Source: the human T2T-CHM13v2.0 reference genome, Homo sapiens. Taken from it: a DNA stretch of 64,000 bases. The notes under the pieces are model-generated. The model did not search any database. It was not told the origin of the DNA and saw only the letters and a program-made list of their open reading frames with translations. Every line of letters begins with the position of its first letter. Position 1 is the stretch's first letter. Position numbers and translations under genes: made by a program. Shown one piece after another: positions 1,900-62,760 of the stretch. The stretch is from assembly GCF_009914755.1 (NCBI RefSeq), contig NC_060930.1. One strand, given 5' to 3'.

Positions 1900-4800
1900 T
1901 GAGAGAAGAGATTCTCTTACTTCAGTAATTGAGAAGAAAAATGAATTCTCCTACCTCAGTAACTGTGGAAAAAGACTGATTTACCTCAGTACCTGTGAAG
2001 AAGAATAGATTTTCCTACTTTAGTAACTGTGGAGAAAAATGTATTCCTCTATCTCAGGGACTATGGAGAAGAACAGATTCTCCTACAGAGAAGAGTGGAT
2101 TTTCCTACCAAGGTAACTGTGGATAAAGAGGGATTCTCCTACCTTGGTAACTGTAGAGAAGAAGACATTCTCTAACCTCAGGAACTGTGGAGAAAGATTC
2201 TTCTACCTCAATAACTGGAAAAAATGAATTTTCCTATTTCAGTGACTGTGGAGAAGGTAAAGAAACTCTTACTTCAGTAAATAGAGGGGAACAGATTCTT
2301 CTACTTCGATAACTGTGGATAAAGAGAGATTTTCCTCCTCAGTAACTGTGGAGAATAGATTCTCCAATGAGAGGAACTGTGGGAAAGAAAGGATTCTTCC
2401 ACATCAATAGTTGTGGAGGAGAGATTCTCCTACATTATAACTGTGGATAAAAAATGAATTCTCATTCAGAAACTGTTGAGATGCATGTATTCTCCTACTT
2501 CAGTAACTGGAAAAGATTTGATTCACTTACCTCCTCAATTGTGAAAAAATGATAAATTCTACTGTCTTTGGAGGAAGAAAAGATCTCCTGCCTCAGTACC
2601 TGTGAAGAATATTGGATTCTTCTACCCCAGTAACTGTGGAGAATAACCAATTTCCCTATATCTGTAATTGTGGACATGGAGAGATTGCACTACCTACACG
2701 TGGAGAAGAATGGCTTCCCCTACCTCCATAACTAAGAAGAAGAATAGATTCTGCTACTTTTGTATCTGTGGAGGATGAAAGGTTTTTTTTACCTCAGTAC
2801 CCATGGAGAAGAATGAATTCTCTTACCTCACTAATTGTAGAGAAAGAGAGACTTTCCTATCCTATCTCAGTAACAGTGGACAATAATGGATTTTTTTTAA
2901 CCTCAACAACTATGGGAAGAAGAGATCTCCTTTAATAACTGTAGAAAAGAATGAATTCACCAACCTTAGTAACTGCAGAGAAGAGATTTTCCTACCTTAG
3001 TAACTATCATGAAGATTTTATTATTCTACCTCAGGAATTGTGGAGAAGGATACATTCTGATACTTCAGTAACTATAGAGAAGGAGAGGATCTTCTCCCTC
3101 AATAACTGTTAAGAATGGATCCTACCTTAGTAACTGTGAAGAAGAATGGACTCTCTTACCTCAGTAACTATGGAGAAGAATGATTCTTTTATCTCAGTAA
3201 ATATAGGGAAGAACAAACTCCATAACTTCAGTAAAAAGAAGAGAGATTCTTCTATCTCAGTACAGGTGGAGAAGAATGGATTCTTCTAATTCAGAACTGT
3301 GAAGAAGAGATTATCCTCTTGTAGTAACTGTGGAGGAAAATGGATTCTCCTCCTTCGTGACTTTGCAGAAGGAGAGATTCTTTTATCACAGTAACTGTTG
3401 AGAAGAATGAATTCTCCCTCTTCAATACATGTGGAGAAGAATAAATTCTCCTACCTGAGTAACTGGAGAAGGAAGGACTTACTTTAAAACTCAGTAACTG
3501 GGAAGGAGAGAGCTCCTTCAGTAACTGTGTAGATGAATGAATTTTCCTAATTAGTAACTGTGTGAAAAAAGATATTCTCCTACCTCAGTAACTGTAGTGA
3601 ATAATTTATTCCTCTATCTCAGTAACTGTGGAGAAGAATAGATTCTCCTGTCTTAATAACTCTGGAAACGGATGGATTCTCTTCCTTCAGTAATTGTGAA
3701 AATGAATTCTCCTACCTTGGTTATTGTGAAGAGGATAAAGGCTGCTACCTCAGTAACAATGAAAGAAGATAGATTCTCTTACCTCAGTAACTGTAGAGAA
3801 AAACGTAATCTCCAAGCTCATTAACTGTAGAAAAGGAAAGATTCTCCTCACTCAGTAACTGTGCAGAAAAATATTATCTTCCCTTAACTGTTGGGAAAAA
3901 AAGAGGATTCTCCTACCACAGCAAGGGAGCAGAAGAGATTTTCCTACCTCAGTAATTGCAGGGAAGAATTATCCTACCACAACATCTACAATGAAGAGTA
4001 AATTCTCCTACTCGAGTAACTGTGGAGAAGAATGGATTTTTTTAACTTCAGAAACTGAAGAATGAATTCCCCTAATCAGTAAATGCATGAAAGAGGAGAT
4101 TCTCCTACCTCAATAACTGTGGTAGAGAATTTATTTTCCTATGTCAGTAACTATGGAGAAGAATGGCTTCTTTTACCTTCTTGATAGATGTAGAGAAGCA
4201 TAAATTCTCCTAGCTGAGTAACTGTGGAGACTGAGGAGGAAGAGACATTCCTCTACATTGGTACCCATAGACAATAATGGATTTTACCAACTCATAACTG
4301 TGCAAATGGACAGATTCTTCTATTTCAGCTACTGTGGAAAAAAAATACATTCTTCTTTAGTACATGTGGAGAGGAATGGGTTCTCCTATCTCAGCAACTA
4401 TGAAGAAAAGATTCTTCTACCCAAGTAATTGTCAAAAAGAATGGATTCTTCTTCCTCAGTAACTTTGGAGAAAGATCTATTCTCTAACCTAGTAACTGTG
4501 GAGAAGGGGAGATTCTCCTACCACGGCAACTGGAGAAAGAAAGGTTCTTTTGTCTCAGTAAATGTAAGGAGGAATGGATTCTTCTACCTCAGTAACTGTG
4601 GATAAAAAGAGATTCTCCTACCTCAGTAATTGTAGAGAAAAGCGATTCTCCTTCCTCAGTAACTGGGGAAGAAAAGCTTTTCTTCCTTAGTAACTGTGGA
4701 AAAGGAGAGAGTCTCCCGCCTCAGTATCTGTGGAGAATAGATTCTACTTTGTTAACTGTGGAGGACAGTGCTGCTACCTGAGTAACTGTGGAAGAGAGAT

Positions 4801-4965
4801 TCTCCTACCTCAGTAACTGTGGAGGAGAGATTTTCCTACCACAGTAACTTTGGAGAAGGAGAAATTCTCCTTCTTTAGTAACTGGAGAAATAGAGCTCTT
4901 CTTCTCTCAGTAACAGTGGAGAAGAATGTATTCTACCTCATTAAGCTTAGAGAAGGAGACATTCC
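1900..4965. repeat. Diverged tandem array (satellite-like), ~35-bp unit, roughly 85-90 copies
   Basis: Recurrent unit close to TTCTCCTACCTCAGTAACTGTGGAGAAGAATGGA over ~3 kb with many substitutions and indels. Confidence 0.95.
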
Positions 4966-8570: not shown

Positions 8571-10000
8571 TCTCCCCAAAGTGCCCTGTAGGAAGATTAA
8601 ATAAAAACTCGCCTTCTCCCAATTGAGCCAATGGTCCCAGCAACCATAGTGATGGCACTATCAGGCAGGGCAGGTCCCCCTCTTACCGATATGGGAGCTG
8701 AGACAAGGAGCCCCTCAGAGCCCAGTCTGAAGTTTCACAATGAAGACAGCTAAGTCACTCCCTTCCTCCCTGCCTCCCCCGTCCTTTCTTCCTACCTTTC
8801 CTCATCAACGAAGCATCCATTAGAAGCCTCCCCTATGGAAAACATTGCTCTGTGAGGATACTATGAAAGTCTCCTGGAAATCAGGAGTGGTCTGGGAATT
8901 TCCAGGGTTGTGTGTGCACACGCGCATGTGTGTTTCTGTTGATAGTACTATTAACAATACAGTAAAAAATAAAGCACTGAATCAGAATTTCTTAAAATTG
9001 TTATATATTTCAAACATTTGCACTCAGCATATTAATGTTTTTATATGTAATTCACACCATTTTATTGGCAGTGTGTCTGGAAATGGGACTAACATTTATA
9101 AGAGCATGTGCCTTTATAGAAATGCGGAAAAGAAAAATGCTGTCTCTCACTCGTGTCATTATGTGACAGTAGGTAAAACTGCATGTGGAGAATGAAGTAC
9201 TGAAAATAAAAAATTAAGGCCCTTCATTAGTATTAGGCCCTGGGTCAGCTTGGGCGAGACAGTCTCCACCTCACAGATTGGCGTCTGCTGGGTTTAAACT
9301 CTTCCTCCCAAAGCACACAGCCTCTTGCCTGTTGCCACCCAGTTGAGTGTCAAGTGGAAGTTCGGAGCCATTGGCTCCATCCCGGCTGCCCACAGAGGGA
9401 AAAAGTGCTGCTAAAGGGGTCGTGTGTTTGGGGAGATGGACTGAAAGCACTCGTGGGTGTGGAGAGGACCGTGGGCTCTGTCCAAGCCCTGCTGCCTCTG
9501 GCCTGGACTGGGAGTGTGCTGCAAGGTCTGGGTGTCCAGGGCCATCGACTCTCTGGACAGCACCGTTCAGTGTGTGCTTCCCTCACATCTGCGGGGGCTA
9601 CTCAGGAACAGGAAGCTGTCCCAGGCTCTCTGGACCTCATCTGCCAAATAACAGAACAGTAACATTGCACAGGTTTGTGGGAAGATTTGTGGAAATAATT
9701 ACATGTCTCTAGTGAATCTGAACTAGAATTCGCAAAGGATATATGTGGGTTAGGAACCTGAGACTAGTTCTGCGTATCCTATAATGCAGCATCTGCATAC
9801 CATAGTATTGGTGAGATCAACACACTTTGCGTGGAAATTGTGATCCCTCACTTCAGACATGCATGAAAGGCCCTAGATCATGCCCTGGTGATGCCTGCCA
9901 TGGTTTCCAGCACGGGCCCTCAACCACACAAGCTCTAAGACTGCACCAGCAACATTGACCAGAGCTTGTTCTTTCAACTATCTATATGGGCATCATCCTT

Positions 10001-10100
10001 ACCTCCACCTCTCCACCGGCATGTCCACCTCTCCATCTACACGTCCACCTCTCCGTCCGCGCGTGTGTCACCTCTCCATCCACACATCCATCTTTCCACA
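10001..10100. repeat. Degenerate 20-bp minisatellite (4-5 copies)
   Basis: Core TCCACCTCTCC recurs in the 10001, 10021 and 10041 blocks, then degenerates. Confidence 0.7.
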
Positions 10101-10629
10101 TGTCCAGGAAACTGTTGCCCTGGGGGCCAGAAAAGTGTAGTTTGTAGCCCTCCACACTAGACGCACACTTTTGCTGTCTCCACCTTGCTAGTGTGGTGGG
10201 CCACGGTGACCCACTCTGGTTGGTCGGTCAGCACACAGTGCGGCGACCGCAGCTCCGTGGTAGACGGTGCACTGGGACCCAGCAAGGCTGGCCGTCCCTC
10301 TGGCGGGGTGGTCAGAGCCGCTTCCTGGAAGGCGGATTTCAGCCGAAGTGCTAATGTCGCCAGGACTTCCTGGCCGCGGACCTGCAGAAGGAGCTCCCAG
10401 AACAGTGCAGGCCACGGGGCTTTAATGCTGCTCCTCCTTCTGCGTCCCATTTTACAAAATAACATTAATAGTAGGTTGATCACAGTTAATTGTTGTTTTG
10501 TAGATTGAAAGCATTTGGAGATTGACAATTTAATAAAGTTTATATTGTTCCAGCTAAGCATAAAAACTTAAAAATTTATAAAGCGCCTTCTAAAACAGTC
10601 ACTTTGCTTCAAACATTTCAATCCTCAAA

Positions 10630-11720
10630 CCCGCCACGTGACTAAGTTAGGGCCGGTATCCTTCTCCCGGCCTCAGGTGAGGAAACTGCCTGCGCCAGGT
10701 TCTCTGGGCCGCGCGGAGCCGGGGCTGACACAGCTGCGGGGCTGGGGTTTCCGATCCCAGCGCAGAGCGTCTCCCGCTGCTCCTGCGGGTGTGAGGCTCC
10801 CGGGATGCCCCTCCCTGAAGTGGGTCGCGACCCGCATCGGGATCCGGGCAGCCAGGCCTCGCAAAAGGCCCTGGGCCCGGGTCTGCTGCTCCGGCCTGAC
10901 CCCTCAGAACCGCCCGAGGCTAGCGCGCCGGGAACCCCGGCCTCAGCCCCTCGCTCCCGCCGCCCTCTGTCTGGAGCTGCCGGGCCGCTCCGCCCCGCAC
11001 GTGGATCCCGGCGGCCGCCCTAGGTGGGGCCTCTTGGCCGGGCCGTCTCCAGCGCCCGCCCTCCCGTGCGTCCCAGCTCGGTGGTGAGCGGCGTTTCCCG
11101 CCTTTGTCTTCCACCCCCTCCCAGCTCTGCCGTGGGAGGTGGCGCCCTTCTCCGGCTCTCCTCAGGCCGCGTTCGCGCCTCACGGGAGGTCTCGCCAGCC
11201 GGGCAATGCTCGGCGCCGCTTCCCGCGCGGGCTGAGGAGAGATGGCGCAGAGGCGCTGGGAACCCACGGGCTTCTGAGGAGCGCAGCGGGCACGACGACG
11301 GAGCGGAGTCCTGAGGCCACAGCTGAGGAAAGGGTCAAGCTCAGGCTCCCAGGCGGTGGCCGAGGGGGCCCCGGGTGGGGCGGAGGCGCATCCTGGGAGG
11401 CGCTCGGGGAGGGTGCTATGGAGGCCGCCCGAGGCCGCCCCAGGCCGCAGGAAACAGGCGGGCGCGTCCTTCCCGCCTCAGCTACAGGCCTGTGGGGCCG
11501 CCTTCCGGGCGCCGCAGCCGCCTGGGCTGTGTGGTTCCATCTTGCAGATGGGATCAGATGGCCCTGGAGGTGGGGTCCCCCGGGTGTGCGCCCCAGACGT
11601 GCAAGCGCCTCCCCACGCCCCATCAATAAGGGTCACAGCCCCCTCCCCAGACCTGGCGGGGCCTCCCAGCCCTTCACGCAGCGCTGACGGGGCCTCTGCC
11701 CACCGGCCACCCTGGTCTCA
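10630..11720. promoter_or_regulatory. CpG island, probable promoter
   Basis: Very high GC and CpG density over ~1.1 kb; GC boxes (CTCCGCCCC ~10988, GGGGCGGAG ~11377); E-boxes CACGTG at 10635 and 10998. Confidence 0.85.
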
Positions 11721-11859
11721 AGACGGAGCCCACGTCTCCTGCTTGGGCTGGATGAGTGACCCTTCCCTGCGGCCATGAACAGGGAGCTTTAAACGTGTTG
11801 AGGTTGGCCCCTGCCCAGCCCGGCTGAACCCCACTCTGTAGGAGGCGCAGGCATCAGAC

Positions 11860-12286
11860 GCCGGGGACGTCATGGTGGAGGAGACTACCCGTGAGCCCGG
11901 TGACGTCACGGTGGAGACCACCCGCGAGGCTGGTGACGTCACAGTGCAGGAGACCACCGCGAACCTGGTGACGTCACGGTGGGGGAGACCACCCCGAGCC
12001 CTGTGACGTCACGGTGGAGGAGACCACCCCGAGCCCGGTGACGTCACGGGTGGAGGAGACCGCCCCGAGCCCTGTGACTTCACGGTGGAGGAGACCACCC
12101 CGAGCCCGGTGACGTCACGGGTGGAGGAGACCGCCCCGAGCCCTGTGACTTCACGGTGGGGGAGACCACCCCGAGCCTGGTGACGTCACGGTGGAGGAGA
12201 CCACCCCGAGCCCTGTGACTTCACGGTGGAGGAGTCCACCCCGAGCCTGGTGACATCATGGTGGAGGAGACCGCCCCTGAGCCCGG
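11860..12286. repeat. 35-bp VNTR (~12 units) with a CRE palindrome in most units
   Basis: Unit GTGACGTCACGGTGGAGGAGACCACCCCGAGCCC(G/T); TGACGTCA at 11901, 11934, 11969, 12004, 12039, 12110, 12181; variants TGACTTCA at 12075, 12146, 12216 and TGACATCA at 12251. Confidence 0.97.
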
Positions 12287-12399
12287 GTGCCCCTGACCCC
12301 AGGCACTGGATGGGATCCCCGGGGGCCATGTTTTAAAATCAGTTTATTTGCTGTCTCATCTATAAATTATTTTTTAATTGCAATAAGACCGCCTACTCA

Positions 12400-12530
12400 A
12401 AAAGAGTTCTGGAGACAGATGATGGTGGTGTCTGCATGTAGGAATGTATTTAATGCCACTGAACTGAACACTTAAAAATGGTTAAGACGGCACACTTTTT
12501 GTTACCTGTATTTACCACAATAAAAAATTG
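12400..12530 (+). mobile_element. Old L1M 3' end fragment
   Basis: GTTCTGGAGACAGATGATGGTG...AATGCCACTGAACTGAACACTTAAAAATGGTTAAG...TTTACCACAATAAAAAA. Confidence 0.8.
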
Positions 12531-12808
12531 GGAGAAAAAGTAAACACTGACCTTTCAAACACACTAGCTGGTCCTGAGGATGTGCGTTTTGTGTTAGTGA
12601 GGCATAAAGGAACCTCAGAGCGTTGGCCAAAAGATGTGGCCATTAATAAACTATGATTTGGGGTAAATGAGCCTCATTTTTTCAACTGTATAAGGGAGAT
12701 TAAAAATAACATAGTCCTCTGTGATGTGGGGGCAAATAACAAATGTTTGCTTTGGTAACTGCAAATTGTGAATAAATGTCACTGTATAGTTAAAAAACAA
12801 CAGCAGCT

Positions 12809-12904
12809 CATCTGGTCAGCACAGCACCACCAGCCTCCCTCATGGCAGAAACCCAACATCTGGTCAGCATAGCACCACTAGCCTCCTTCATGGCAGAAAC
12901 CCAA
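12809..12904. repeat. 48-bp direct tandem duplication
   Basis: CATCTGGTCAGCACAGCACCACCAGCCTCCCTCATGGCAGAAACCCAA twice (12809, 12857) with 3 mismatches. Confidence 0.9.
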
Positions 12905-13515
12905 CTCTGGTGTAGCGTCAGCACTGAACAACAGATGGAACATTAGCCCAGGACACATAGCGGATCCTGAAGACAGGCATTTGCTCGTGGGTTGAATTTG
13001 GAGAAGCACAACACATTCAGAGGGTAACTGTTCCTGATCTTCAAGGTCGTCCATTAATAAGTGTTCAAAGTTGGTTTGTTCTCCAGTTTTCGACGTATCT
13101 GTGTGTACAGTGAAGTGTCAAGAACTCCAGCCTCCACCGATTCGAGACCACTTGTCCTCTGTACAAATACTTAGCCTGGCAGCAGAGCGAAGAAGAGACT
13201 GCAGGGCATGTTTGTTCTCTGCAGACGCTGGCACCACCCACGAAAGGCAAACAACTGTGTCTGTGGAGCTGGATCCCCTCTGGTCACAGGGAACAGCCAG
13301 ACTTCCTGGGACAGGGGTCAGAAGGTGGGAGACAGGCAGGGGCAGCCAGTGAGGAAGGAACCAGGACGAGGTCCCAGTAGACGCCCGGGAGGAGACAGCC
13401 CAAGCGGAGGAGAGGCCTGGAAGCAGGCGGGCGCCCTGAGCCTTCATGTCCCCTTTGCTGGTAAGCAGCATCTGCCTAGACCTCCTAACCTCGCATTCAA
13501 GAGTCCACTGAGCAC

Positions 13516-13712
13516 GGGCATGGGGAGGGAGCATGTGGACGGCCTCTAACCTGTGCGCCAGCCGACGGTGCCACCAAACGGGAGGCGTGGGCTGTGGGTC
13601 TCCCCTTCTCACTGGGCATGGGTGTGGGGAGGGAGCATGTTGATGGGCCTCTAACCCACATGCCAGCAAATGACGACGATGCCACCGTGGGCTGTGGGTC
13701 TTCCCTTCTGAA
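13516..13712. repeat. ~98-bp diverged tandem duplication
   Basis: GGGCATGGGG...GAGGGAGCATGT...GGCCTCTAACC...CGTGGGCTGTGGGTCT..CCCTTCT occurs twice. Confidence 0.75.
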
Positions 13713-15671
13713 CCTGCATATGCAGCGGCACCTACTTCAGGGCATCTACAAGCCGCCCCTGGCCCCAGCACCACGACACCTCTGCCCCTAAGGAGCTGCG
13801 AGTCCCTGGCCCCCAGGCTTGCCTGGGCCACAGGTTTCTCATGGGAATGGGGATCTTCATAGCACCTCACAGGCCTGCTGTCCTAGGGGCCACTGAGACC
13901 ATCGCTGCAAGGCTGCGAGGTGCACCACCCGGCTCAGTTCTGCTGTGTGGTGGTGATAAGATGACATCTGGGGTTTTGTTTTTGCTTCTCTGACTTCCCA
14001 TCCTTTCAGGCTGGAGGCCCCTGACCCTGCTGGCGTGGCCAGGGGGTTGGGGAGGGAGTGCAGGGAGCTAACCCAGCTGACCAGCTCAGACTGGGAAGCC
14101 TCAGGTGGGTAGGGCAGGCCCGGGGCTGGGGAGGCTCCGCCTTTGACCAGGAGGCCTGTGGCAGAGATGCCTCAGGGGTAGGGTTTCCTGGCTGTTTATT
14201 TCTAGGATAGGACCGATGCCAGTGTCCCTTTTAGAAAAGCTGGAAGAAGCATTCCTGGGTGAAAGTCTGGACAACAGTACCTGCCTGGGCGGCCCGGGCT
14301 CTGCCCCCGCTTCAGCACCCGGGGGGCCCTGAGTGCCTGGCTGCTGAGTCACCTCTGTAGAGCCAAATTCCACAGACGCGCACCTGGCGCCAAACACCTG
14401 GCTCCTGGACCTGCCTGTTCAGGCGCTGTGCCCAGGTTTCTACGTGCCTGGAGGGCGGGAGGCCTGCTGGGCGTGCACGCGATCTCATCAGCACACTTAA
14501 TATACATGTACCCACACCCTGCAGGCGCGTGGACAGGCGGGTCATGGCCTGGTAGCAAGAGCACACCTGGAGATTCTGTGGTGCCTTAACTTTCCAAAGC
14601 ACTCTCATGTGACTGTCCCACGATCACGTCTTCCATCCCTGCCCTCTCAGCCAGGCTCCAGGCCGGGCTCTTCGCCTGCATTGGTGGTGGCCCCTCTGCA
14701 AACTCAGTGCTAGACAAGACAGATTATTGTATTTTGTCCTTGGAGGAACTGAGGCTCAGAGAGTGTGATCTACACACCCAGGCCACACAGCTGGGGTGTG
14801 TCACACAGGCATGAGTGTTCTGACCCTGGGACCAGCCACACCCTCCACCACTCTGGGCACTTCAGGCGAGCTCCTTAATCCCAGCCAGGCCTCTATACAA
14901 AGGTCTTAACTGTCTAGGCTAATATTTTAAGAAATGGGTGGATATATCTGCTTTAGGAAGCCCGTCCATGAATATCCATGCCTGTCCTAGCATGTAAATT
15001 GAAGGACGTCTTTCCATTGAAGAAAGGCTTTTCTTTGAAGAAGCCTTGCTATAAAGTAGAGGTGAACTTCTCGGCCACGTGCAGGAAGGATGGCTTACAT
15101 CAAAGCACATTTCACAGTTTAACCAAGAACTCTCATGTCTGTTAGCACTTGAACTTAATTTAAGATTCGATGTTGCCTTTCCTAGGAAAGATTGTACAAG
15201 TGGGTAGCTTACATTCTGCTTACATTCCAAGCACATTACTGTTCATTATTCAGCCATAAGTGCCATTATTATAGGCCCTTGATGGAGTTACATAAGTGAA
15301 ATGGGCTGAATTTCACTAAGTTTCTATTTTGCACCAGGGGTTTGCCTCAATCAATACTTTTTGGACAAGACCTGGATTGAGACAGAAAGTTGATATTATA
15401 CAAACTAAGGTAAGTTTGTGTTATATTTCCTTTTCAATTGGGACATTAGTTATTGGTTGTCACATGTACTCACACATAAATAAAATGTGGACTTATTAGG
15501 CCAGGAGGAAGGACAGATACGGGGGAGGAGAAGCTGTAACCAGAAGGCAGTAGAAAGCCCAGACCTCCCCCAGGGCCCTTGCTGCACTCAGTCCCTGTTG
15601 AGTCAGAGACAGGGAGAAGCCAGGGCGTAGGGGAGTTGGTGAGGGGAGCAGCCTTGGCGAGCGGGAGGTGG

Positions 15672-16412
15672 GGAGACGGAGATGGAGATGGAGACAGAGA
15701 GATACAGACAGAGACAGAGAGAGACAGAGATGGACAGAGACAGAGATGGGGACAGAGACACAGAGATGGAGAGACAGAGATGGAGAGAGACAGAGATGAA
15801 GAGATACAGAGATGGACAGAGACAGAGATGGAGAGAGACAGAGACGGAGAGAGAGATGGAGAGAGAGACAGACATGGAGACAGACAGACAGAGACGGAGA
15901 GAGACAGAGATGAAGAGAGACAAAGATGGAGAAAGGCAGAGACAGACAGAGACAGAGATGAAGAGAGACAGACGGAGAGAGACAGAGAGAGATGGAGAGA
16001 GACAGAGATGAGGCGGACAGAGAGACATGAAGAGAGATAGAGATGGAGAGAGACACAGATGGAGAGAGACAGAGATGAAGAGATAGAGAGATGAAGAGAG
16101 ACAGAGATGGAGAGAGACAGAGAGAGACAAAGACAGGGATGGAGAGAGATAGAGATGGGGATAGACAGAGATGAAGAGATACAGAGACAGAGATGAAGAG
16201 AGACAGAGTGAGACAGAGATGGAGAGAGAGAGATAGATGAAGAGATACAGAGACGGACAGAAACAGAGATGGAGAGAAACAGAGATGAAGACAGACAGAG
16301 ATGGAGAGATACAGAGAGGTGGAGATGGAGAGAGATAGACAGGGAGAGATGAAACAGAGAGACAGGAATGGAGAGATACAGGGAGAAATGGAGACAGAGA
16401 GAGGTGGGGACA
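15672..16412. repeat. GA-rich low-complexity tract (GAGACA/GAGATG units)
   Basis: ~740 bp of purine-rich GAGACAGAGATG-type repeats. Confidence 0.95.
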
Positions 16413-17204
16413 GAGCGAGCCAGCTTGTGCCACTCCAGGGCCGGGTTCTGTGTACACATGGGCACGGCATCCTGGGCCGTGCATTGCTTTCCCAGAGCGC
16501 GTGGCTGTCTGTGGGGACAGGACCAGGAAGAAGCCGCCTGGTTGCTCTCAGGCCACCTCAGAGAAGGCGGGAGGTGACTTCAAGACAGAGAGGACACCAG
16601 AGAGGCTGCTCCCAGCCAGCAGAGCCGAGCACAGGTGTGGAGCCTCGAAATGGCCTCGACTCCAAGGGGACTTTGGAGCAAGCCCAGCAGCGGAGCCAGG
16701 CAATGGGTGGGGTTTGTCCGCCAGAGAAGGGCAGAGCAGAGGCCCAGCCAGAACTTTCAACCTGAAACCCAGGATCCCTCAGACCCTCTGATCGGCAGAA
16801 GCTCCTTTAACTGGGAATTTGTTTATATTTCAAGTGAACTGTTGCTAAACGCTGTGTTTTAGGCTAGATGAATCAAGGCCTGGCACACCTGACGATGTCA
16901 AAGGGGGCCTGGGAGCTGGAGACTTCCATGTCCATGGGCAAAAGCAGGGTGGTGCTCAGGTGCTGGGAGGAGGTCCTGGGCCTCTGTGTCCTTGCAGCAG
17001 GAGGCTGGATGTAGAAGAGAAGGCAGCCGCCTGGGCGTTCAGTGCCGCCCGACAGACGGCCCCACCTCTGCCACAGCCCTTCCCGCCTGGTCCATGCCCT
17101 GCACCAACCCCAAAGTGACCTCTGTAAAACTCAGGGCCATTTTCCTGACGGAAATTCCACAATGACCTTCAATCTTAGTCGTACAATGGAATCTCTTGTA
17201 GATA

Positions 17205-17320
17205 TATATATTTTTAAATGCTCACACCTGGGCATCACCAGAAATTTAGGCCTCATTGGTCTGGGCTGGAGTCCGGGCACTGTTAAAAGCCCCAGGTGAT
17301 CCTGACACAGCCGGGTGGGG
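17205..17320. mobile_element. MER5-like hAT MITE fragment
   Basis: ATTGGTCTGGGCTGGAGTCCGGGCACTGTTAAAAGCCCCAGGTGATCCTGA. Confidence 0.55.
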
Positions 17321-17417
17321 TTGGCACAGGTGGAATCCCTCCTTCATGATGTCCCGGCAGCTGCTTGAACCACCCCAAGCATCATCTCGCAAACAGCAGC
17401 GATGATAATGAAATGCC

Positions 17418-18030
17418 CACCTGCACCCGAGGTCCTGCAGTCCTGCAGCCGCCAAGCTGGTCCACGCCTGCAACCGAGGTCCTGCAGCCACCAAGCTGGT
17501 CCACACCTGCACCTGAGGTCCTGCAGCCGCCAAGCTGGTCCACACCTGCACCCGAGGTCCTGCAGTCCTGCAGCCCTGCAGCCACCAAGCTAGTCCACGC
17601 CTGCACCCGAGGTCCTGCAGCCGCCAAGCTGGTCCACGCCTGCACCCGAGGTCCTGCAGCCGCCAAGCTGATCCACGCCTGCACCCGAGGTCCTGCAGCC
17701 ACCAAGCTGGTCCACACCTGCACCTGAGGTCCTGCAGTCCTGCAGCCACCAAGCTGGTCCACACCTGCACCCGAGGTCATGCAGCCACCAAGCTGGTCCA
17801 CGCCTGCACCTGAGGTCCTGCAGCCCTGTGGCCACCAAGCTGGTCCATGCCTGCACCTGAGGTCCTGCAGCCCTTCAGCCGCCAAGCTGGTCCATGCCTA
17901 CACCCGAGGTCCTGCAGTCCTATGGCTGCCAAGCTTGTCCATGCCCTGTAACCTGCTTGAAAGGCACTTTAAGACCTGCACCCGAGGTCCTGCAGTCCTA
18001 CGGTCCTGTGGCCACCAAGCTGGCCCATGC
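17418..18030. repeat. 39-bp VNTR (~13 units) with optional 8-bp internal duplication
   Basis: Unit CCTGCACCCGAGGTCCTGCAGCCGCCAAGCTGGTCCACG; some units carry an extra TCCTGCAG or CCCTGCAG. Confidence 0.95.
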
Positions 18031-18314
18031 CCCTGTCACTTGCTTGAAAAACGCTTCAACACCTGGCTTCCACATCCCTTCCTGGAGCTTCCCAGAGCCT
18101 CCAGTGAGTCTGCAGCTCCCAGCTCTGCACTGCCTGAAATCACAGGGAGACGTACGTGTCAAGGTGCGAGTGCCATGCCTGTCCTCTCAGGAACAGCATT
18201 CTGAGCTCCTCACTGTGGAAGCTGCTGTGGTCTCTGCTTCCACGTGGGCACAGGCCATCATGCAGCAAGGTGTGAGCGAGGACCCCACTCTCAAAATGCA
18301 ACACGCTTGACTGT

Positions 18315-18505
18315 CCAATACACACAAGGACTCATGTGCACACACAAGTGTCTACACATGTCCACACAGTACATATGCCCACACACACGGTACAGTCATA
18401 CACGTGCACACAAGTGCAATGCACACATCCATGTGTCTGCACATGTTCACATGTGAAGACGTGTTTGCATGTGTATTCACATGTGTGGACACCTGTGCAC
18501 ACCCC
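18315..18505. repeat. Degenerate (CA)n/(TG)n alternating purine-pyrimidine tract
   Basis: CA-rich first half switching to a TG-rich second half. Confidence 0.75.
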
Positions 18506-21209
18506 CCCCACCACCGTCACCACTGTGTCTCTGGTGGTAGTGAGAGGGTAAGGGTAAGAATTTCTGGATCCCACATACGATATCCTAAAGCAAAATGCCC
18601 TCACGCCTCCTCCCTGAGAGAAGACGCAGCAGCCACAGGAAGTGAGCTTCTTGGACAAGGAACATCAGGCGTCCAGTGCCCCACCGGCTTCCTGGTGCCT
18701 AGTCCCCTAAAGAGGTTAGAGGTGCTGATAAAATGAGCTGCTGTGCTGATGCCTGGGGTGACTGGGGTGGAGGGATGTGGGGGCGGCAGCCCTGTTGTCC
18801 TGGAGCTGCTCCTTCTCCCCGCTGCATCACTCCTGGGCCTCTCCTGGAGGCCTGAGCCATCCTCCCCAGGGCAGCCCCAGGCTGTGCTGCCTGAGCAAAC
18901 CCAGAGCCCAGCCCTCCCTCCCCCTGCAGCCTGAGGGCAGGGACCATGGCAAGCCCTTCTCCTACAGCCCCAGTGCCTCAGCAGCCTCATTTTCGGGGAC
19001 GTGCCAGCTCATTTTCTGGTCTGTTTTGTGGTGTGGCAACAGCCTCGAATCACAGCAGCCTGAACAGCCCAGTAAATATTTACACAAACCTGGGGCTGGC
19101 AGGCCCTCTCCTTTGTGGGGCTGCCCTGCTGAAAGGGAGGGGAGCCAGGCCGGCTCAGTCCCAGCTCGGCGCAGATGGTGCCTGCAGCACGCAGTTCTTG
19201 CGGGGACGCAGCCGGGATGCAGACGTGGGCTTTTGAAGCCCCCGGCAAAAGCTGGTGGCCGCTCCTGGCTGGGGTTCTGTGGTCTTGTGTCTGGAAATGT
19301 GGCCTGGGAACATCCCTGAGGTCTCCCCAGAACAGCAAGGATTGTCTTCTTTCTTATGCTCTTCATCAATGCACAGGCAGCCCTCTGAAGTCCTCAGAAT
19401 GCTCCAGATCTGGACAGTCACCTCCCAGCTGGGCTCTGGTGCTCTGGAAATCAGAAACAGGTTTCTTATGTGGTTCATTTTTCTCCATTTCCAGGCATTT
19501 TTATTGTTATTCTTATTAACAAATGACATCATCACTGCCAGTCATAGTAAGTGTATAAAAGTGCATTTATGGGGCATATCCATTGAGGCGTTCCCAGGAC
19601 AGAGACGGGCCAGGGAGGCCAGAGTTCTCCGCCTTCGGCAAAGGCAGCCATGAGTCAGTCATAAGTTAGGGTGACAGGCGCCTGGCGTCACAGGAGACCT
19701 CAGGCCACAGTCACAGGGAGAACTGGGCATCATCACCGGGCGCCTGGCCTGTGTGCCCCCATCCAACCAGCCCGAGCTATGAGCTCCTCATAACCAGCAG
19801 CCCGAAACCAGAGAGGACTAACATCTACACCTCCTCTACACCCAACAGGGACAGCTCACAGCGCCCAGGGCTCAATGGAGACCAGATGTTTGGGAGAGGT
19901 GGGAGAGGACATGGGGTGAGGCCTGCTGCTTCTCCAGTGAATAAGGTGGCTGGAATTAGGATTAAATTTGTAAGGGAATGTTTGGGCCAGAGGACCCACC
20001 ATTTCTGCGGTCTCTATCTCCCCCAACACCCCAAATGTCCAACAAGGATACAGAGCCCAGGAAAAAGCCGGGCTCAGGGAGGAGACTCGGAGGGCAGGTC
20101 ACATACCTGCTGGTGGAAAGCCAGGCAGGAACCCTGTGTGGCCATGACATCAGCACGGAAAGGCCCCTGGACCTCAGCCTGTCCCCACTGCATGGCAGGC
20201 AAGAAGCAGCAGCCCAGAGGTGGCCCCACGTTAGGGCCAGAGTCCCAGTGTGGCTCCCATCTCCTGGGGCAGCTCATGGCACTAGCCAGAAAAGCCCAGT
20301 CGGGGGATCCAGGGGCTCATGAGACACGAGACATTTGCTTCTTCCCTTGGACACTCCCTTCTAGGAACAGGGTGAGCTGGAGAGAGGCAACAGAGCAGGA
20401 GCAGGGAGCACTGAGGGTGGCTCCGCCTGAGGGTACAGCACACGTCCAGGGCTGTCTGCACACTGTTTCTCCCTCTCTTCTCACTCCCAATTTAGAACAA
20501 GTGCCCAGGGGAAGAAAGAAGAAAAGAGATGCTGCTCCTGCTGCCTGTGCCTCCTCCTTCCAGAGTGCTCTGCAGGGCAGGCTGCAGGCAGGGCCTTGTC
20601 ACCCTGGCACCCTCCAGTTCTCCATCTCTACCACTCCATCTGGACCCGTGCGCCAGCCGGTATCCAGGACCCCAACCTTTCCCTCTCCGTAAACGAGTCC
20701 GTGCAAATTCATGGCCCCAGCCCATAAAGAACAGGGTGTTTCCGTCTCTTAGGCCTCAAATGTTTTAAATGCACAGAAAGAGATAGTGAGTGTTCAGGGT
20801 GTCTCTGCCGCATGCATTCAGCAGGAGCTACCATGGCCGACCTGGGCACCACACTTCAGATATGTGGCTCTGCACAGTACAAGAGATTGGGCCAGTCATC
20901 ATGTCCTACAAACACACAGCACGGAGGCATTACCTACACCACAAACCCACAGGTGCTCAGGGACAAATGTTTAAGCTACTGAGGCTGCACCAGGCTCAAA
21001 CACAGATGGCATCTTTCAGATCACCAGAGGCAGTGTCCACCAGACGTGCAATTCCTCTGCAGGAGTCAGACCCCAGGTCACCCAGCTTGCTGGGAGGGTT
21101 CCTCCGGAGCAGAGGGAGACATGCCCAAGTCAGACTGGGGAACACCAGCAGTTGACTTCCGTAGCGTTTGCCACCAGTACCATCTTCCTCTGTAACTGTA
21201 TCTTCCCAA

Positions 21210-21760
21210 CTTCTTGTGAATATCTCCACCAGATGTTCCATCAGCACTTAAAACTCACATTTCAACACTTGATCTGAATTCCTCCAAATCCCACTTCTTC
21301 CCCTGGGCACCTTGATTCGGTGCTGGCACCACCATCAACCAGGCAGCCAGAACCAAACTTTGGGCTTCTTCTCACTCTCATGCTCCCATGCAAACCACTG
21401 TGAAGTCAGGTCATTGCTCTCTCTGAACTGTCTCCTAAAATCACCCCTTTTCCCAATGTCTACCCCTAACTCTCAAGGGAACCCCTCATCCCCATCCATT
21501 TTGGCCAGTCTGCCTGGCACACCCTCACCCACGATCCTTCCTGCAGCACAGAGCTTTCATACCCTACTCAAGTATCCAGCACAGGGAAGTTCTTTCCTCC
21601 TGGGTGTGGAGCCCATCAGCACCCGGGTGAGTGTCGAGCCCACCTCCATGGCACCCTTCTCTCTTGAGTCCCAGACAAACCAAGTGCTCCCAGCTGCCAC
21701 CTGGCCCTGCTTTTCTGCCCTGCCCTTTGCTCAAGCCATTTGCACTCAAAGTGACCTGTC
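21210..21760 (+). mobile_element. L2 LINE fragment
   Basis: ATCTCCACCAGATGTTCCATCAGCACTTAAAACTCACATT...GGCACCACCATCAACCAGGCAGCCAGAAC typical of L2. Confidence 0.6.
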
Positions 21761-23033
21761 CTTCAGGCCCAGCCTGCATCAGACACACTCTTTCCCAGAC
21801 CCAGCCCGCAACAGACACACTCCAAATCTACAGCAGAGGAGGCCTGGAAGTTGGGTCTGGCTGCTCCATCCAGGGGTCTTTGCCAAGCAGATGCTTGACC
21901 CTCCTGGGGGGCCCCACTGGCCCCTCCTCCTCTAGTTTACCTAGCGCGCCTGTGGTCTCAGAGTCCTCCACACCCAAATCACCTCCAAGAATCAAAACTG
22001 AAATTGGGGAAGAAACAGTTCGCATGCTTCTGAGGGAAAGAACCTATCCCTCTAGTTCCCAAATGTGTAGTCAACCCTGCCCGAGGGCTCCTGGAGAGAA
22101 GGGGAGGGAAGGGACGTCTGGACACAGGTCTCTTGTTGCACCTGAAGGCCCTGAGTCCAAATACAGTCTCACTGGGAGCTGGGACTTCAGCGCAGGACTG
22201 GGGGGCGCCATTCAGTCCACGAGATCTGCAGCATGTAGGGAGGGTGAGGTCGGGGAGCAGGCAGAGGCTTGTGCCCAGGCTGCAAAGTTTCTCAGCCTGT
22301 TGGGCAGGGATACAGCTTTAAACAAAGAAGTCCAGTCAAGAGCCCTGGCTGCTGGCACAGATCACCACACTGGAGATGTGACACGCCACCTCGCCATGGC
22401 GTCTGCCACTGAGAACGTCCCAAGCCAGGCCCTAACCCGCCTGCCTGGGTTTTTCACCCCGGGCTCTCTTCAGGGCCATAACCTCTTGGGATGGATAATG
22501 AATGTTCATTGATTTTTATTAGTATGTGAAAACAAACACATCTTAAGTAATAAATAATGTATTTAAAGTTATCTATGGTTGAAGTATGTATTACAAGGTC
22601 CATTTACATATGATCTTTAAAAATATTCCTATAATTTCCTCATTTGGCAAGTGTTATATGCACTTTACTCCACTTTCAAAGTAAATGTAAGAAAAACCCA
22701 TGGCTCATCAATACTTTTGAAGCAAACGACTATTTTCTATTTTATTTAAGGACTGAGTGTATGTTAGAAAATCAAATTACTTGCATGTACTATGTCTCCA
22801 AATGACTTTTATGATCCAAAGTTTAGAATATTTTTATTCAGATGTTTAAATAGCTGCTTCTCTAGAGATCATATTTTGTTCCCAAACGGTGCAAGGGACT
22901 TTGAGACATGTCTGAAACTCTTTCCAAACAGCACATTGATGGTGTGACAGCTCATATTCACAGTCAGCAAAAAGCAAAATGGCTATGACTACCATTCTAT
23001 TTCCCCTTTTGTCCATTGGATGTGAGGGACATC

Positions 23034-23160
23034 TTGACATGTTATGGAGGCATCTTGCTAAATGACTGACGTGTTATGTAGGCATCTTATTAAATGATTG
23101 ACATGTTGTGCAGGCATCTTGCTAAGTGATTGACATGTTATGTAGGCCTCTTGTTAAATG
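23034..23160. repeat. 32-bp minisatellite (~4 copies)
   Basis: Unit ~TGACATGTTATGTAGGCATCTTGCTAAATGAT. Confidence 0.85.
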
Positions 23161-23281
23161 GATGCAACTTAGAGACATCCTGAGATTTACTTGCAGAACT
23201 GCTGCAATTCTTTTTAGTACTTGCCGGCTTTCCTTAGCTTCCTCATAGCCACTGTCAATTTACATGGAATAATATATGACT

Positions 23282-23650
23282 ATGAGGAATAAAAATACAA
23301 TTCTAAGGCCCGCAACCAACTGAAATGACCTCCCCTTGGCCAAAGGGACCTCTGAGAAACCTTGAAAACTGAGTTCCCAGCCATGACAGAGGGGAGGTCA
23401 GACTTGCTTCGTGATCCCCCTCCCTCATTAAGCACCATTAGGCTTTCTTCCCTGAGGGCTACACAGAATACAGCCCCTTCAAACGAGACCATGCTGATTT
23501 CCACCAACTTGATGTCACCCCTCTCTTTTATGGTTTGGGCACAAACACTGACCAGCACTCCTTCCTGATGGGAGAGCACTGACTTCAGACTGTAGCTCTG
23601 CCGGGCCCTCACAGGAAGCACAGTGAGGGTTTTTGCATCCCCTGCTTCAC
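23282..23650 (+). mobile_element. MER4-group ERV1 LTR (MER39-like), 3'-truncated
   Basis: AATAAAAATACAATTCTAAGGCCCGCAACCAACTGAAATGACC...CCAGCCATGACAGAGGGGAGGTCAGAC matches the MER4-group LTR 5' motif. Confidence 0.7.
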
Positions 23651-24674
23651 ATTTCCCCTCCACGCTGCCCTAGGAGAGGTTCTCCACGAGGGCTCTGCCC
23701 CTACAGCAGGCTGCTGCCTGGACATCCAGGAGCTTCCATACATCCTCTGAAATCTAGGCAGGAGCTCCCAAGCCTCAACTGTTGCCCTCTGCACACCCAC
23801 AGGCTTAACACCACGTGGAAGCTGCCAAGGCTTACAGCTTGCGCCTTCTGGAGCAGCTGCCTGAGATGTATCTGGGGCCTTTTTAGCCATGGCTGGAGCT
23901 GGAGCAGCTGGGACACAAGGAGCAGTGTCCCAAGTCTGCGCAGGGTGGTGGGGTCCTGGGCCTGGCCCGCAAAATCATTCTTCCCTCCTAGGCCTCTGAG
24001 TCTGTGATGAGAGGAGCTGCACTGAAGTTCTCTGAAATGCCTTTGAGGCATTTTCTCCATTGTCTTGGCTATCAACATTTGGCTCTTGTTTACTTATGCA
24101 AATTTCTGCAAGCCAGCTTGAATTCCTTCCCAGAAAATGGGTTTTTCTTTTCTACCACATGGCAGGGCTGTAAATTTTCCAAAATTTTATGCTTTGCTTT
24201 CCCTTTAAATTTAAGTTCCAATTTCAGATCGTTTCTTTGTTTATGCAAATGAGCATAGGCTTTTAGAAGCAGCCAGGCCAAATCTTGAACACTTTGCTGT
24301 TTAGAAATTTCATCTGCCAGACACCCTAAATCATCTCTCTCAAGTTTAAAGTTCCACAGATCCCTAGAGCAGGCACACAATGCCTCCAGCCTCTTTGCTA
24401 AAGCATAGCAAGAGTGACCTTTACTCCAGTTCCCAACAAGTTCCTCATCTCCATGTGAGATCTCCTCAGCCTGGACTTCATTTTCCATATGACTATCAGC
24501 ATTCTGATCACAATAATTTAACATGTCTCTAGGAAGTTCCAAACTTTCCCTCATCTTCCTGTCTTCTTCTGAGCCCTCCACACTCTTCCAACCTCGGCCC
24601 TTTACCCAGCTCCAAAGCAGCTTCCACATTCCAGGGATCTTTATAGCAATGCCCCGCCCCTGGTACCAATTTTC
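23648..24674 (-). mobile_element. MST/THE1 MaLR internal region (truncated)
   Basis: Minus-strand ORF 24090-24695 (EGSEEDRKMRESLELPRD...GNWSKGHSCYALAKRL) is the MaLR internal ORF; GAAAATTGGTACCA follows the LTR. Confidence 0.92.
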
Positions 24675-27274: not shown

Positions 27275-27760
27275 AGTCCCTGCTGGGGCGCAATGTCCCT
27301 GCTGTCCCTCCATGTCCCTGCTGTCCCACCATGTCCCTGCTGTCCCTCCGTGTCCCTGCTGTCCCTCCATGTCCCTGCTGTCCCACCATGTCCCCGCTGT
27401 CCCTCCGTGTCCCCGCTGGCCGTGTCCCCGCTGGCCCACCGTGTCCCTGCTGTCCCACCATGTCCCTGCTGTCCCACTGTGTCCCCGCTGTCCCTCCGTG
27501 TCCCCGCTGGCCGTGTCCCTGCTGTCCCTCCGTGTCCCTGCTGTCCCACCATGTCCCTGCTGTCCCACTGTGTCCCCGCTGTCCCTCCGTGTCCCTGCTG
27601 TCCCACCGTGTCCCTGCTGTCCCACCATGTCCCTGCTGGTGCACCGTGTCCCTGCTGTCCCACCATGTCCCTGCTGTCCCTCTGAGTCCGTGCTGGCCCA
27701 CCGTGTCCTTGCTGTTCCTATGTGTTCTTGCTGGTCCACCATGTCCTTGCTGGGGCACTG
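27275..27760. repeat. 19-bp VNTR (~25 units)
   Basis: Unit TGTCCCTGCTGTCCC(ACCA/TCCG/ACTG) with shorter TGTCCCCGCTGGCCG variants. Confidence 0.95.
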
Positions 27761-33727: not shown

Positions 33728-34166
33728 GTGTGGGCAGCACAGGGTGCATGGTCACCTGCAGTGGATGGTGTGGGCAGCACGGGGTGCGTGGTCACCTGCA
33801 GTGGATGGTGTGGGCAGCACGGGGTGCGTGGTCACCTGCAGTGGATGGTGTGGGCAGCACGGGGTGCGTGGTCTCCTGCGGTGGGTGGTGTGGGCGGCAC
33901 GGGGTGCGTGGTCTCCTGCGGTGGGTGGTGTGGGCGGCACGGGGTGCGTGGTCTCCTGCGGTGGGTGGTGTGGGCGGCACGGGGTGCGTGGTCGCCTGCG
34001 GTGGGTGGTGTGGGCGGCACGGGGTGCGTGGTCGCCTGCGGTGGGTGGTGTGGGCGGCACGGGGTGCGTGGTCTCCTGCGGTGGGTGGTGTGGGCGGCAC
34101 GGGGTGCGTGGTCGCCTGTGGTGGGTGGTGTGGGCGGCACGGGGTGCGTGGTCGCCTGTGGTGGGT
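33728..34166. repeat. 40-bp G-rich VNTR (~11 copies)
   Basis: Unit GTGTGGGCGGCACGGGGTGCGTGGTCTCCTGCGGTGGGTG. Confidence 0.97.

Positions 34167-58212: not shown

Positions 58213-62760
<4,548 letters not shown>

What the first reader, a model, noticed from the sequence alone, without database searches (positions are those of the whole stretch)
11860..12286. CRE-multimer VNTR abutting a CpG island: a natural, possibly copy-number-tunable cAMP-response enhancer
Seen: ~12 units of 35 bp; 7 carry the perfect palindrome GTGACGTCAC (CRE at 11901, 11934, 11969, 12004, 12039, 12110, 12181) and the rest carry single-base variants (TGACTTCA x3, TGACATCA, GGACGTCA). Six units also contain GACCACCC (11916, 11987, 12022, 12093, 12164, 12199), matching 8 of 9 bases of the GLI site GACCACCCA. 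The array starts ~150 bp from the island edge. Established: TGACGTCA is the high-affinity CREB/ATF site, full palindromes are scarce because of CpG decay, and methylation of the central CpG blocks binding. Retained CpGs imply recent expansion or an unmethylated germline state. Inference: this resembles a synthetic multimerised CRE reporter; unit number, unit type and methylation could set the cAMP inducibility of the adjacent promoter. Best candidate for an undescribed regulatory system in the window.
Basis: partly seen in the sequence, partly recalled or inferred. Interest (0 to 1): 0.85.

Follow-up and report, generated by a model that had tools for sequence, protein, structure and literature searches.

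The report
CRE-bearing minisatellite on a CpG island
A 12-unit tandem repeat beside the promoter of an uncharacterised human non-coding RNA gene carries seven perfect binding sites for cAMP-responsive factors, but it looks like an ordinary repeat that copied a site it happened to contain, not a new regulatory system.

Summary
Window 11861-12286 holds 12.1 units of 35 bp. It contains all 7 TGACGTCA sites of the 64-kb window, each within GTGACGTCAC; shuffles expect 0.44.

The array is the CpG-dense downstream shoulder of a CpG island. It lies inside exon 1 of predicted lncRNA LOC105378150, at +393 to +818 from the annotated start. The region is subtelomeric 6q27, with about 20 minisatellites in this window.

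The seven sites are not independent. The 3' half is three copies of a 71-bp dimer, which also spread a dead variant (TGACTTCA) to 3 units. The CRE core varies as much as the rest of the unit. In T2T-CHM13, runs of three full CREs occur at about 12 loci, one of them a 224-unit array on chr17. Two of three matched control palindromes form such runs at least as often.

The GLI reading fails: 0 full sites.

A close precedent is in print: the TRIB3 33-bp promoter repeat, with one bZIP-factor site per unit and copy number that tunes expression.

Verdict: a real, striking array. It is at best a new member of a known kind. Factor binding, methylation, copy-number polymorphism and cAMP response are all untested here.

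The parts
10650..11700 (.). Core of the CpG island (GC 0.73, CpG o/e 0.73, 103 CpG)
11469..13460 (+). Exon 1 of predicted lncRNA LOC105378150; annotated start at 11469. It contains the whole array.
   Evidence: hub annotation given with the finding; not tested here
11861..12286 (.). 35-bp minisatellite, 12.1 units, GC 0.69, CpG o/e 0.75, 38 CpG. Stops in all six frames.
12038..12249 (.). Three copies of a 71-bp dimer (a CRE unit plus a TGACTTCA unit). Units 6 and 8 are identical.
11900..11909 (.). Perfect CRE palindrome GTGACGTCAC (unit 2)
11933..11942 (.). Perfect CRE palindrome (unit 3)
11968..11977 (.). Perfect CRE palindrome (unit 4)
12003..12012 (.). Perfect CRE palindrome (unit 5; this unit equals the consensus)
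12038..12047 (.). Perfect CRE palindrome (unit 6)
12109..12118 (.). Perfect CRE palindrome (unit 8)
12180..12189 (.). Perfect CRE palindrome (unit 10)
12075..12082 (.). TGACTTCA variant (unit 7). It has neither TGACG nor CGTCA. The same change is at 12146 (unit 9) and 12216 (unit 11).
12251..12258 (.). TGACATCA (unit 12), a CpG-to-CpA decay variant at the array edge
11865..11872 (.). GGACGTCA (unit 1), an edge variant that keeps the half-site CGTCA
12060..12065 (.). CCGCCC (GC-box-like word) made by A>G in CCACCCC. Also at 12131 and 12271.
12361..12366 (+). TATAAA, 172 bp beyond the last perfect CRE, in AT-rich sequence. No start site is annotated there.

Best explanation
This is a GC-rich 35-bp minisatellite in the repeat-dense subtelomeric part of 6q27. 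It forms the downstream shoulder of the CpG-island promoter of lncRNA LOC105378150 and is transcribed as part of exon 1.

Shown: the founder unit contains a 10-bp palindromic CRE, and amplification in 35-bp and later 71-bp register multiplied it to 7 perfect copies. The mechanism (unequal exchange or slippage) is inferred.

Inferred:
- The array is CpG-dense and continuous with the island, so it is probably hypomethylated in the germ line.
- Where it is unmethylated in cells, CREB1/ATF1-type dimers would occupy it, as they do other CpG-island promoters.
- That would add constitutive activator sites whose number depends on allele length.
- Any effect is likely modest and on the lncRNA. A dedicated cAMP switch is not indicated.
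For: Repeat anatomy:
- Units 6 and 8 are identical, and three 71-bp dimers fill 12038-12249.
- Edge units 1-3 and 12 are 75-86% like the consensus unit. Inner units 4 and 6-11 are 91-97% like it, and unit 5 is the consensus itself.
- The window holds about 20 separate tandem arrays (42 TRF rows).
- The unit has no copy elsewhere in T2T-CHM13: 6 of 6 matches at <=3 mismatches lie in the array.

CRE runs elsewhere in the genome:
- Three full CREs at gaps of 10-40 bases: 11 matches in 7 loci. At gaps of 41-70: 18 matches, adding 5 loci. At gaps of 0-9: none.
- These include chr17:179069-185340, 28 bp x 224 units with 27 full CREs.
- Matched central-CpG palindromes at gaps of 10-40 gave 0 (AGTCGACT), 44 (GTACGTAC) and 29 (ATGCGCAT) matches.

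No extra conservation of the CRE core: 5/96 against 23/324.

CpG: o/e 0.75 in the array. Ten of the 13 other arrays compared in the window lie at 0.00-0.47.

Print: CREB1 binds almost only unmethylated CpG-island promoters and is blocked by motif methylation (PMC9729108 passages).
Against: - Seven perfect 10-bp palindromes in 426 bp is the second-highest full-CRE count among the 12 loci found.
- The control palindrome arrays that searches printed sit in AT-rich, simple-looking repeats. They are an imperfect match for GC-rich minisatellites.
- CpG transitions are only 1.6 times as frequent per base as other changes (9/96 against 19/324, p=0.24). This fits protection from methylation, which could reflect function.
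- Selection on a repeat that is homogenised by turnover is hard to see in 12 units of one haplotype.
- No occupancy, methylation, expression or population data could be consulted.
Confidence: 0.55

Rival explanations
1. One reading: a working cAMP-response enhancer whose unit number, unit type and methylation tune the output. It would drive the lncRNA promoter, or a cryptic TATA promoter just downstream of the array.
For: - 7 full CREs.
- TATAAA lies at 12361, downstream of the array.
- CpGs are retained.
- The TRIB3 VNTR shows that the principle works in vivo (PMC7425993 abstract).
Against: - The array lies +393 to +818 downstream of the annotated start.
- The nearest perfect CRE ends 172 bp before the TATAAA, and the others lie 240-460 bp away. 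Reporter activity dropped beyond about 120 bp, and natural CREs cluster 1-150 bp upstream of starts.
- A dead variant spread to 3 of 12 units, and the core is not conserved above background.
- None of the 5 RefSeq enhancer features listed for the window overlaps the array (hub annotation).
- No protein-coding gene is listed within 100 kb (hub annotation).
Confidence: 0.15
2. An inert repeat. The array is methylated in most or all cells, as many subtelomeric CpG-rich repeats are, so the CREs are never occupied. CpG retention reflects youth and homogenisation only.
For: - CpG decay is visible at the edges: unit 1 CACGG>CATGG, and unit 12 TGACATCA and CATGG.
- The 160-bp gap between island core and array has o/e 0.49.
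- A second very young array in the window (33728-34167, 97% matches) is equally CpG-dense (o/e 0.81) without lying beside a large island. It is itself called island-like by my scan.
- Methylation blocks CREB1 binding.
Against: - The array is contiguous with an island whose core has o/e up to 0.89.
- It lies within the first 820 bp of an annotated transcript.
- CpG transitions are not markedly in excess.
Confidence: 0.2
3. The palindromes act through DNA or RNA behaviour, not through transcription factors. Self-complementary neighbours could pair as slipped structures that promote instability or recombination, or the repeat could work within the lncRNA.
For: - Two adjacent units fold better than shuffles (z -2.8; 3 of 200 shuffles fold as well) because neighbouring palindromes pair.
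- CRE-like M26 sites bound by Atf1 promote meiotic recombination in fission yeast (PMC2677671; title and start of abstract in the search listing only).
Against: - The whole array as single-stranded DNA is unremarkable (z -1.29; 9 of 100 shuffles fold as well).
- A single unit has z -0.12.
- No Rfam family matches in 9000-24000.
- No match to the pattern CCNCCNTNNCCNC, recalled as the PRDM9 motif, on either strand in 10000-13500.
- No evidence ties human hotspots to CREs.
Confidence: 0.05

Closest known systems
TRIB3 promoter 33-bp VNTR (PMC7425993; abstract read)
   Same: A human promoter-region minisatellite of about 33-35 bp in which each unit carries a site for bZIP factors. It is the demonstrated case of copy number setting promoter output.
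   Different: - TRIB3 has 1-5 copies of a C/EBP-ATF element upstream of a protein-coding gene. It has reporter and RNA-seq proof, and the unit is a conserved single-copy element in other mammals.
- Here there are 12 units with a palindromic CRE, downstream of the start of an uncharacterised lncRNA.
- No functional, population or cross-species data are available here.
Expression- and methylation-associated VNTRs in general (PMC8024321 passages; bioRxiv 10.1101/2020.12.16.423078 passages)
   Same: Tandem repeats near starts and in subtelomeric regions. They are proposed to act by multiplying factor sites and by changing local methylation.
   Different: I could not find this array listed as such a locus. 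The tables I could search were uninformative.
Synthetic multimerised CRE reporters (bioRxiv 10.1101/625434 passages)
   Same: Several consensus CREs in a row. Output rises with the number of sites.
   Different: - Synthetic sites sit within about 120-180 bp upstream of a minimal promoter at chosen spacings.
- Here the spacing is 35-36 bp, a rotation of about 120 degrees per unit at 10.5 bp per turn.
- No core promoter lies at the right distance.
Other CRE-bearing tandem arrays of the same genome
   Same: GC-rich minisatellites with a full or near-full CRE per unit:
- chr17:179069-185340, 28 bp x 224 units, 27 full CREs
- chr1:242.51 Mb, 25 bp x 5, 5 CREs
- chr12:132.50 Mb, 51 bp x 6, 6 CREs
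- chr17:0.89 Mb, 65 bp x 6, 5 CREs

Most lie near chromosome ends.
   Different: The units are unrelated apart from the CRE. Alignment scores above shuffles are inflated by the shared core. None shares this unit at <=3 mismatches.
Viral CRE multimers: the 19-bp repeats of the cytomegalovirus immediate-early enhancer and the 21-bp repeats of the HTLV-1 LTR (recalled, from no call)
   Same: Natural enhancers built from repeated CRE-type sites.
   Different: The viral repeats are few, interspersed with other sites, lie upstream of a TATA promoter and are experimentally proven.

Membership tests
Minisatellite / VNTR | Head-to-tail units of about 10-100 bp in several copies | tested here: met
   Period 35, 12.1 copies, 85% matches; higher-order period 71
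Minisatellite / VNTR | Copy number varies between individuals | not testable with these tools
   Only one haplotype (T2T-CHM13) is held. The catalogues searched gave nothing usable.
Minisatellite / VNTR | Not a coding repeat | tested here: met
   Stops in all six frames across the array. The TGA of the palindrome rotates through the frames.
CpG island | GC >=0.55, CpG o/e >=0.65, length over 200-500 bp | tested here: met
   Array GC 0.69, o/e 0.75, 426 bp. My scan merges it with the core into 10154-12278.
CpG island | Unmethylated in the germ line and in expressing cells | not testable with these tools
   Indirect only: CpG transitions 9/96 against other changes 19/324, p=0.24
CREB-target / cAMP-responsive promoter | Full CRE TGACGTCA present | tested here: met
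   7 sites, all GTGACGTCAC
CREB-target / cAMP-responsive promoter | CRE within about 150 bp upstream of the start site or TATA box | tested here: not met
   The array lies +393 to +818 from the annotated start. The only downstream TATAAA (12361) lies 172 bp beyond the last perfect CRE. The rule comes from PMC1796609 and 10.1101/625434.
CREB-target / cAMP-responsive promoter | CREB/ATF occupancy and induction by cAMP or forskolin | not testable with these tools
   No ChIP, ATAC or expression data within reach
TRIB3-type regulatory VNTR | Each unit carries a bZIP-factor site | tested here: met
   7 of 12 units have a full CRE, 1 (unit 1) keeps a half-site, and 4 have lost both half-sites (TGACTTCA x3, TGACATCA)
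TRIB3-type regulatory VNTR | Copy number correlates with expression; reporters respond to unit number | not testable with these tools
   Needs population genotypes with RNA-seq, or reporter assays
GLI-responsive element | GACCACCCA nonamer | tested here: not met
   0 matches on either strand in the window. The six GACCACCC are followed by C (5) or G (1).

The most novel reading that the evidence does not exclude
The array is a methylation-gated landing pad for CREB/ATF/CREM factors, and its length varies between people. When unmethylated, for example in germ cells or on cAMP signalling, its 7 or more palindromic CREs would drive transcription of LOC105378150 or of a cryptic TATA-linked start near 12390. 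Allele length and the share of dead TGACTTCA units would set the output. That would make it a natural dose series of a classic signal-response element.
Probability: 0.12. Interest if true: 0.55.

Novelty: new member of a known kind. Interest (0 to 1): 0.3.

Why it matters
If the array binds CREB-family factors and varies in length, it would be a natural allelic series for asking how the number of sites and CpG methylation set the output of a signal-responsive element in native chromatin. TRIB3 showed the principle for a different bZIP-factor site.

The test is cheap. The unit is unique to this locus in T2T-CHM13, so existing ChIP-seq, ATAC and bisulfite reads that carry it can be assigned by k-mer counting.

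The likely target is an uncharacterised lncRNA, with no protein-coding gene listed within 100 kb. The DSL-domain match that I took, from recalled coordinates, to be DLL1 lies about 267 kb away. The biological stake therefore looks small.

Tried and rejected
- Coding repeat: rejected; stops in all six frames.
- Known RNA: 0 Rfam matches in 9000-24000.
- Special single-strand structure: the whole array has z -1.29 and one unit z -0.12. Only a two-unit piece reaches z -2.8.
- GLI site: 0 full nonamers.
- The pattern CCNCCNTNNCCNC (recalled as the PRDM9 motif), AP-1 heptamer, NRF1 word, CCAAT: none in or beside the array.
- Paralogues or a dispersed-repeat origin: the whole array and the unit match only this locus.
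- Common origin with the chr17, chr22 and chr16 CRE arrays: scores exceed shuffles, but the shared CRE core was selected for. Left open.
- Genome-wide excess of CRE multimers: not seen against three matched palindromes.
- Published catalogues:
  - The array is absent from the 467 human-specific VNTRs of PMC8327921: 0 hits for TGACGTCA in the 2 of 3 supplement files that could be searched.
  - Searches by estimated hg38 or hg19 position in the supplements of PMC10234305, PMC11701250, PMC4857002 and PMC8275641 found nothing. My positive control, the neighbouring 17-mer array, was also absent, and one file was stored cut. These searches are therefore uninformative.
- Literature: LOC105378150 occurs in 1 paper, only as the nearest gene in a GWAS table. 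'Minisatellite' with 'cAMP response element' and 'CREB' gave 5 papers, none on such an array. 'VNTR' with 'CREB1', 'ChIP-seq', 'eQTL' and 'motif' matched 2 papers; the 1 listed is on SVA elements.
- Not held: a 2005 PNAS paper on CREB occupancy. What I say of TATA dependence beyond searches is recalled.
- Supplements of bioRxiv preprints are closed. The eVNTR and mVNTR tables of 10.1101/2020.12.16.423078 may bear on this locus and were not seen.

Full report
**What is there**

The window sequence at 11861-12286 is a tandem array of 12.1 units of 35 bp (85% matches). It has a better-fitting higher-order period of 71 bp (6.0 copies, 90% matches).

I split the array at the CRE-like core into 12 units of 33-37 bp:
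- Seven units carry GTGACGTCAC, at 11900, 11933, 11968, 12003, 12038, 12109 and 12180.
- Three carry TGACTTCA, one TGACATCA and one GGACGTCA.

All 7 TGACGTCA of the 64-kb window lie in the array. In 100 dinucleotide-preserving shuffles the mean is 0.44 and the maximum 3.

**Setting**

The array has GC 0.69 and CpG o/e 0.75, with 38 CpG. It follows a CpG-island core (10650-11700, GC 0.73, o/e 0.73) after a 160-bp stretch with o/e 0.49. A scan with GC>=0.55 and o/e>=0.65 in 200-bp windows, merging runs no more than 100 bases apart, returns one island-like stretch, 10154-12278.

By the hub annotation, the start of predicted lncRNA LOC105378150 is at 11469 and exon 1 runs to 13460. So the array is transcribed and lies at +393 to +818.

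The window carries about 20 separate tandem arrays (42 TRF rows). This fits its place about 0.75 Mb from the end of chromosome 6 (chromosome length recalled). I compared 13 other arrays of the window. Ten have CpG o/e of 0.00-0.47. Only 33728-34167 matches this array in CpG density (8.4 against 8.9 CpG per 100 bp).

**How the seven sites arose**

- Units 6 and 8 are identical. Units 6-7, 8-9 and 10-11 are three copies of a 71-bp dimer.
- Inner units 4-11 are 83-100% alike. Edge units 1-3 and 12 are 70-86% like the other units.
- The G>T change that destroys both half-sites (TGACTTCA) sits in the second unit of each dimer, so one event was amplified three times.
- Edge units show CpG decay (CACGG>CATGG, TGACATCA).
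- Relative to the consensus unit there are 28 substitutions and 9 indel positions. 5 of 96 CRE-core bases are changed against 23 of 324 other bases (Fisher p=0.64). CpG-type transitions affect 9 of 96 CpG bases against 19 of 324 for all other changes (p=0.24).

So the CRE is no better kept than the rest of the unit. CpG decay is only mildly raised. That fits a young or homogenised array, a germ-line hypomethylated one, or both.

The array cannot code: stops occur in all six frames. It matches no Rfam family. As a single strand it folds no better than shuffles (z -1.29), although two neighbouring palindromes can pair (z -2.8).

**How unusual is it in the genome?**

The whole array and its unit (at <=3 mismatches) occur only here in T2T-CHM13.

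Runs of three full CREs:
- Gaps of 10-40 bases: 11 matches in 7 loci.
- Gaps of 41-70 bases: 18 matches, adding 5 loci.
- Gaps of 0-9 bases: none.

Counts of full CREs in the tandem arrays that I examined:

| Locus | Unit and copies | Full CREs |
|---|---|---|
| chr17:179069-185340 | 28 bp x 224 | 27 |
| this array | 35 bp x 12 | 7 |
| chr12:132.50 Mb | 51 bp x 6 | 6 |
| chr10:134.11 Mb | 37 bp x 29 | 6 |
| chr1:242.51 Mb | 25 bp x 5 | 5 |
| chr17:0.89 Mb | 65 bp x 6 | 5 |
| chr13:112.25 Mb | 79 bp x 3.6 | 4 (5 in the 3.1-kb locus) |
| chr22, chr2, chr16, chr5 | - | 3 each |
| chr1:4.87 Mb | 23 bp x 2.8 | 2 (3 in the 3.1-kb locus) |

Three control palindromes with the same base composition and a central CpG gave 0, 44 and 29 matches at gaps of 10-40. 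The reversed, CpG-free pattern gave 48.

CRE multimers are thus rare because CpG words are rare. They are not commoner than two of the three matched words, and this array is one of a small class. The control arrays that searches printed sit in AT-rich, simple-looking repeats, so the comparison is rough.

**Reading as a regulatory element**

From print:
- Canonical CREs concentrate 1-150 bp upstream of start sites, and 81% of conserved ones lie in CpG islands (PMC1796609, abstract and passages).
- CREB1 binds almost only at unmethylated CpG-island promoters and is excluded by motif methylation in vivo (PMC9729108, passages).
[quoted passage not shown] Activity falls beyond about 120 bp from the minimal promoter (bioRxiv 10.1101/625434, abstract and passages).

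At this locus:
- The sites are of the best kind, but they lie downstream of the only annotated start.
- The one TATAAA after the array (12361) is 172 bp beyond the last perfect CRE and has no annotated start.
- The island core itself has a single half-site, at 11685.

I therefore expect occupancy by CREB/ATF dimers if, and where, the array is unmethylated. Their number would depend on allele length. I do not expect a strong cAMP switch. All of this is inference; none of it could be measured here.

**GLI**

No unit holds GACCACCCA. GACCACCC is the right arm of a GGTGG-N6-CCACC inverted repeat.

**Comparison with what is known**

- The TRIB3 promoter 33-bp VNTR has 1-5 copies, with a C/EBP-ATF element per unit. 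More copies give more reporter activity and more mRNA in many tissues (PMC7425993, abstract).
- Genome-wide studies report that VNTRs within 100 bp of transcription start sites are twice as likely as others to be expression-associated, and argue that length acts through factor sites (PMC8024321, passages). They also report expression- and methylation-associated VNTRs enriched at promoters, with many associations in subtelomeric regions, as expected from the known enrichment of VNTRs there (bioRxiv 10.1101/2020.12.16.423078, passages).
- I found nothing in print on this array itself. LOC105378150 occurs once, as the nearest gene in a GWAS table.
- The array is not among the 467 human-specific VNTRs of PMC8327921. 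That table did give an anchor: its 17-mer at hg38 chr6:170064716-170066619 is the window's array at 53411-55607. This puts the CRE array near hg38 chr6:170,023,166-170,023,591, give or take indels.
- Four further supplement searches by position were uninformative.

**Verdict**

Most likely (0.55) this is an ordinary island-shoulder minisatellite whose founder unit happened to contain a CRE. It probably serves as a constitutive landing pad when unmethylated.

The rivals are:
- an inert, methylated repeat (0.20);
- a structural or RNA role (0.05).

It would be a new member of a known kind. Interest is modest.

Noticed in passing
window 53411-55607: A 17-bp x 128 array (CCATCCCTCCATCCACC). It matches the entry 'LOC105378150, chr6:170064716-170066619, 17-mer' in the table of human-specific VNTR expansions of PMC8327921. 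The table pairs that entry with a variant at chr6:170063801.
   Followed up: partly
window 33728-34167: A 40-bp x 11 array with 97% matches, GC 0.73, CpG o/e 0.81. It is a second, very young CpG-dense minisatellite, and my scan calls it island-like.
   Followed up: no
window 1-64000: About 20 separate tandem arrays in 64 kb. They include 34 bp x 71 (2569-4934), 50 bp x 20 (43367-44374), 19 bp x 25 (27294-27752) and 33 bp x 10 (61375-61707). This is typical minisatellite-dense subtelomeric sequence.
   Followed up: partly
L034 (G000:C17:179069-185340): A 6.3-kb array of 28 bp x 224 whose consensus holds CGACGTCA, with 27 perfect TGACGTCA, GC 0.70 and CpG o/e 0.83. It is the largest CRE-like multimer among the loci I examined in this genome. 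It carries the same TGACTTCA variant as the chr6 array.
   Followed up: partly
L009 (G000:C1:242512788-242512915): A 25-bp x 5.2 array with 98% matches and 5 perfect GTGACGTCAC, CpG o/e 1.32. It is a compact CRE pentamer.
   Followed up: no
window 12060, 12131, 12271: An A>G change in CCACCCC turns three units into CCGCCCC. This adds GC-box-like words and new CpGs inside the array.
   Followed up: no
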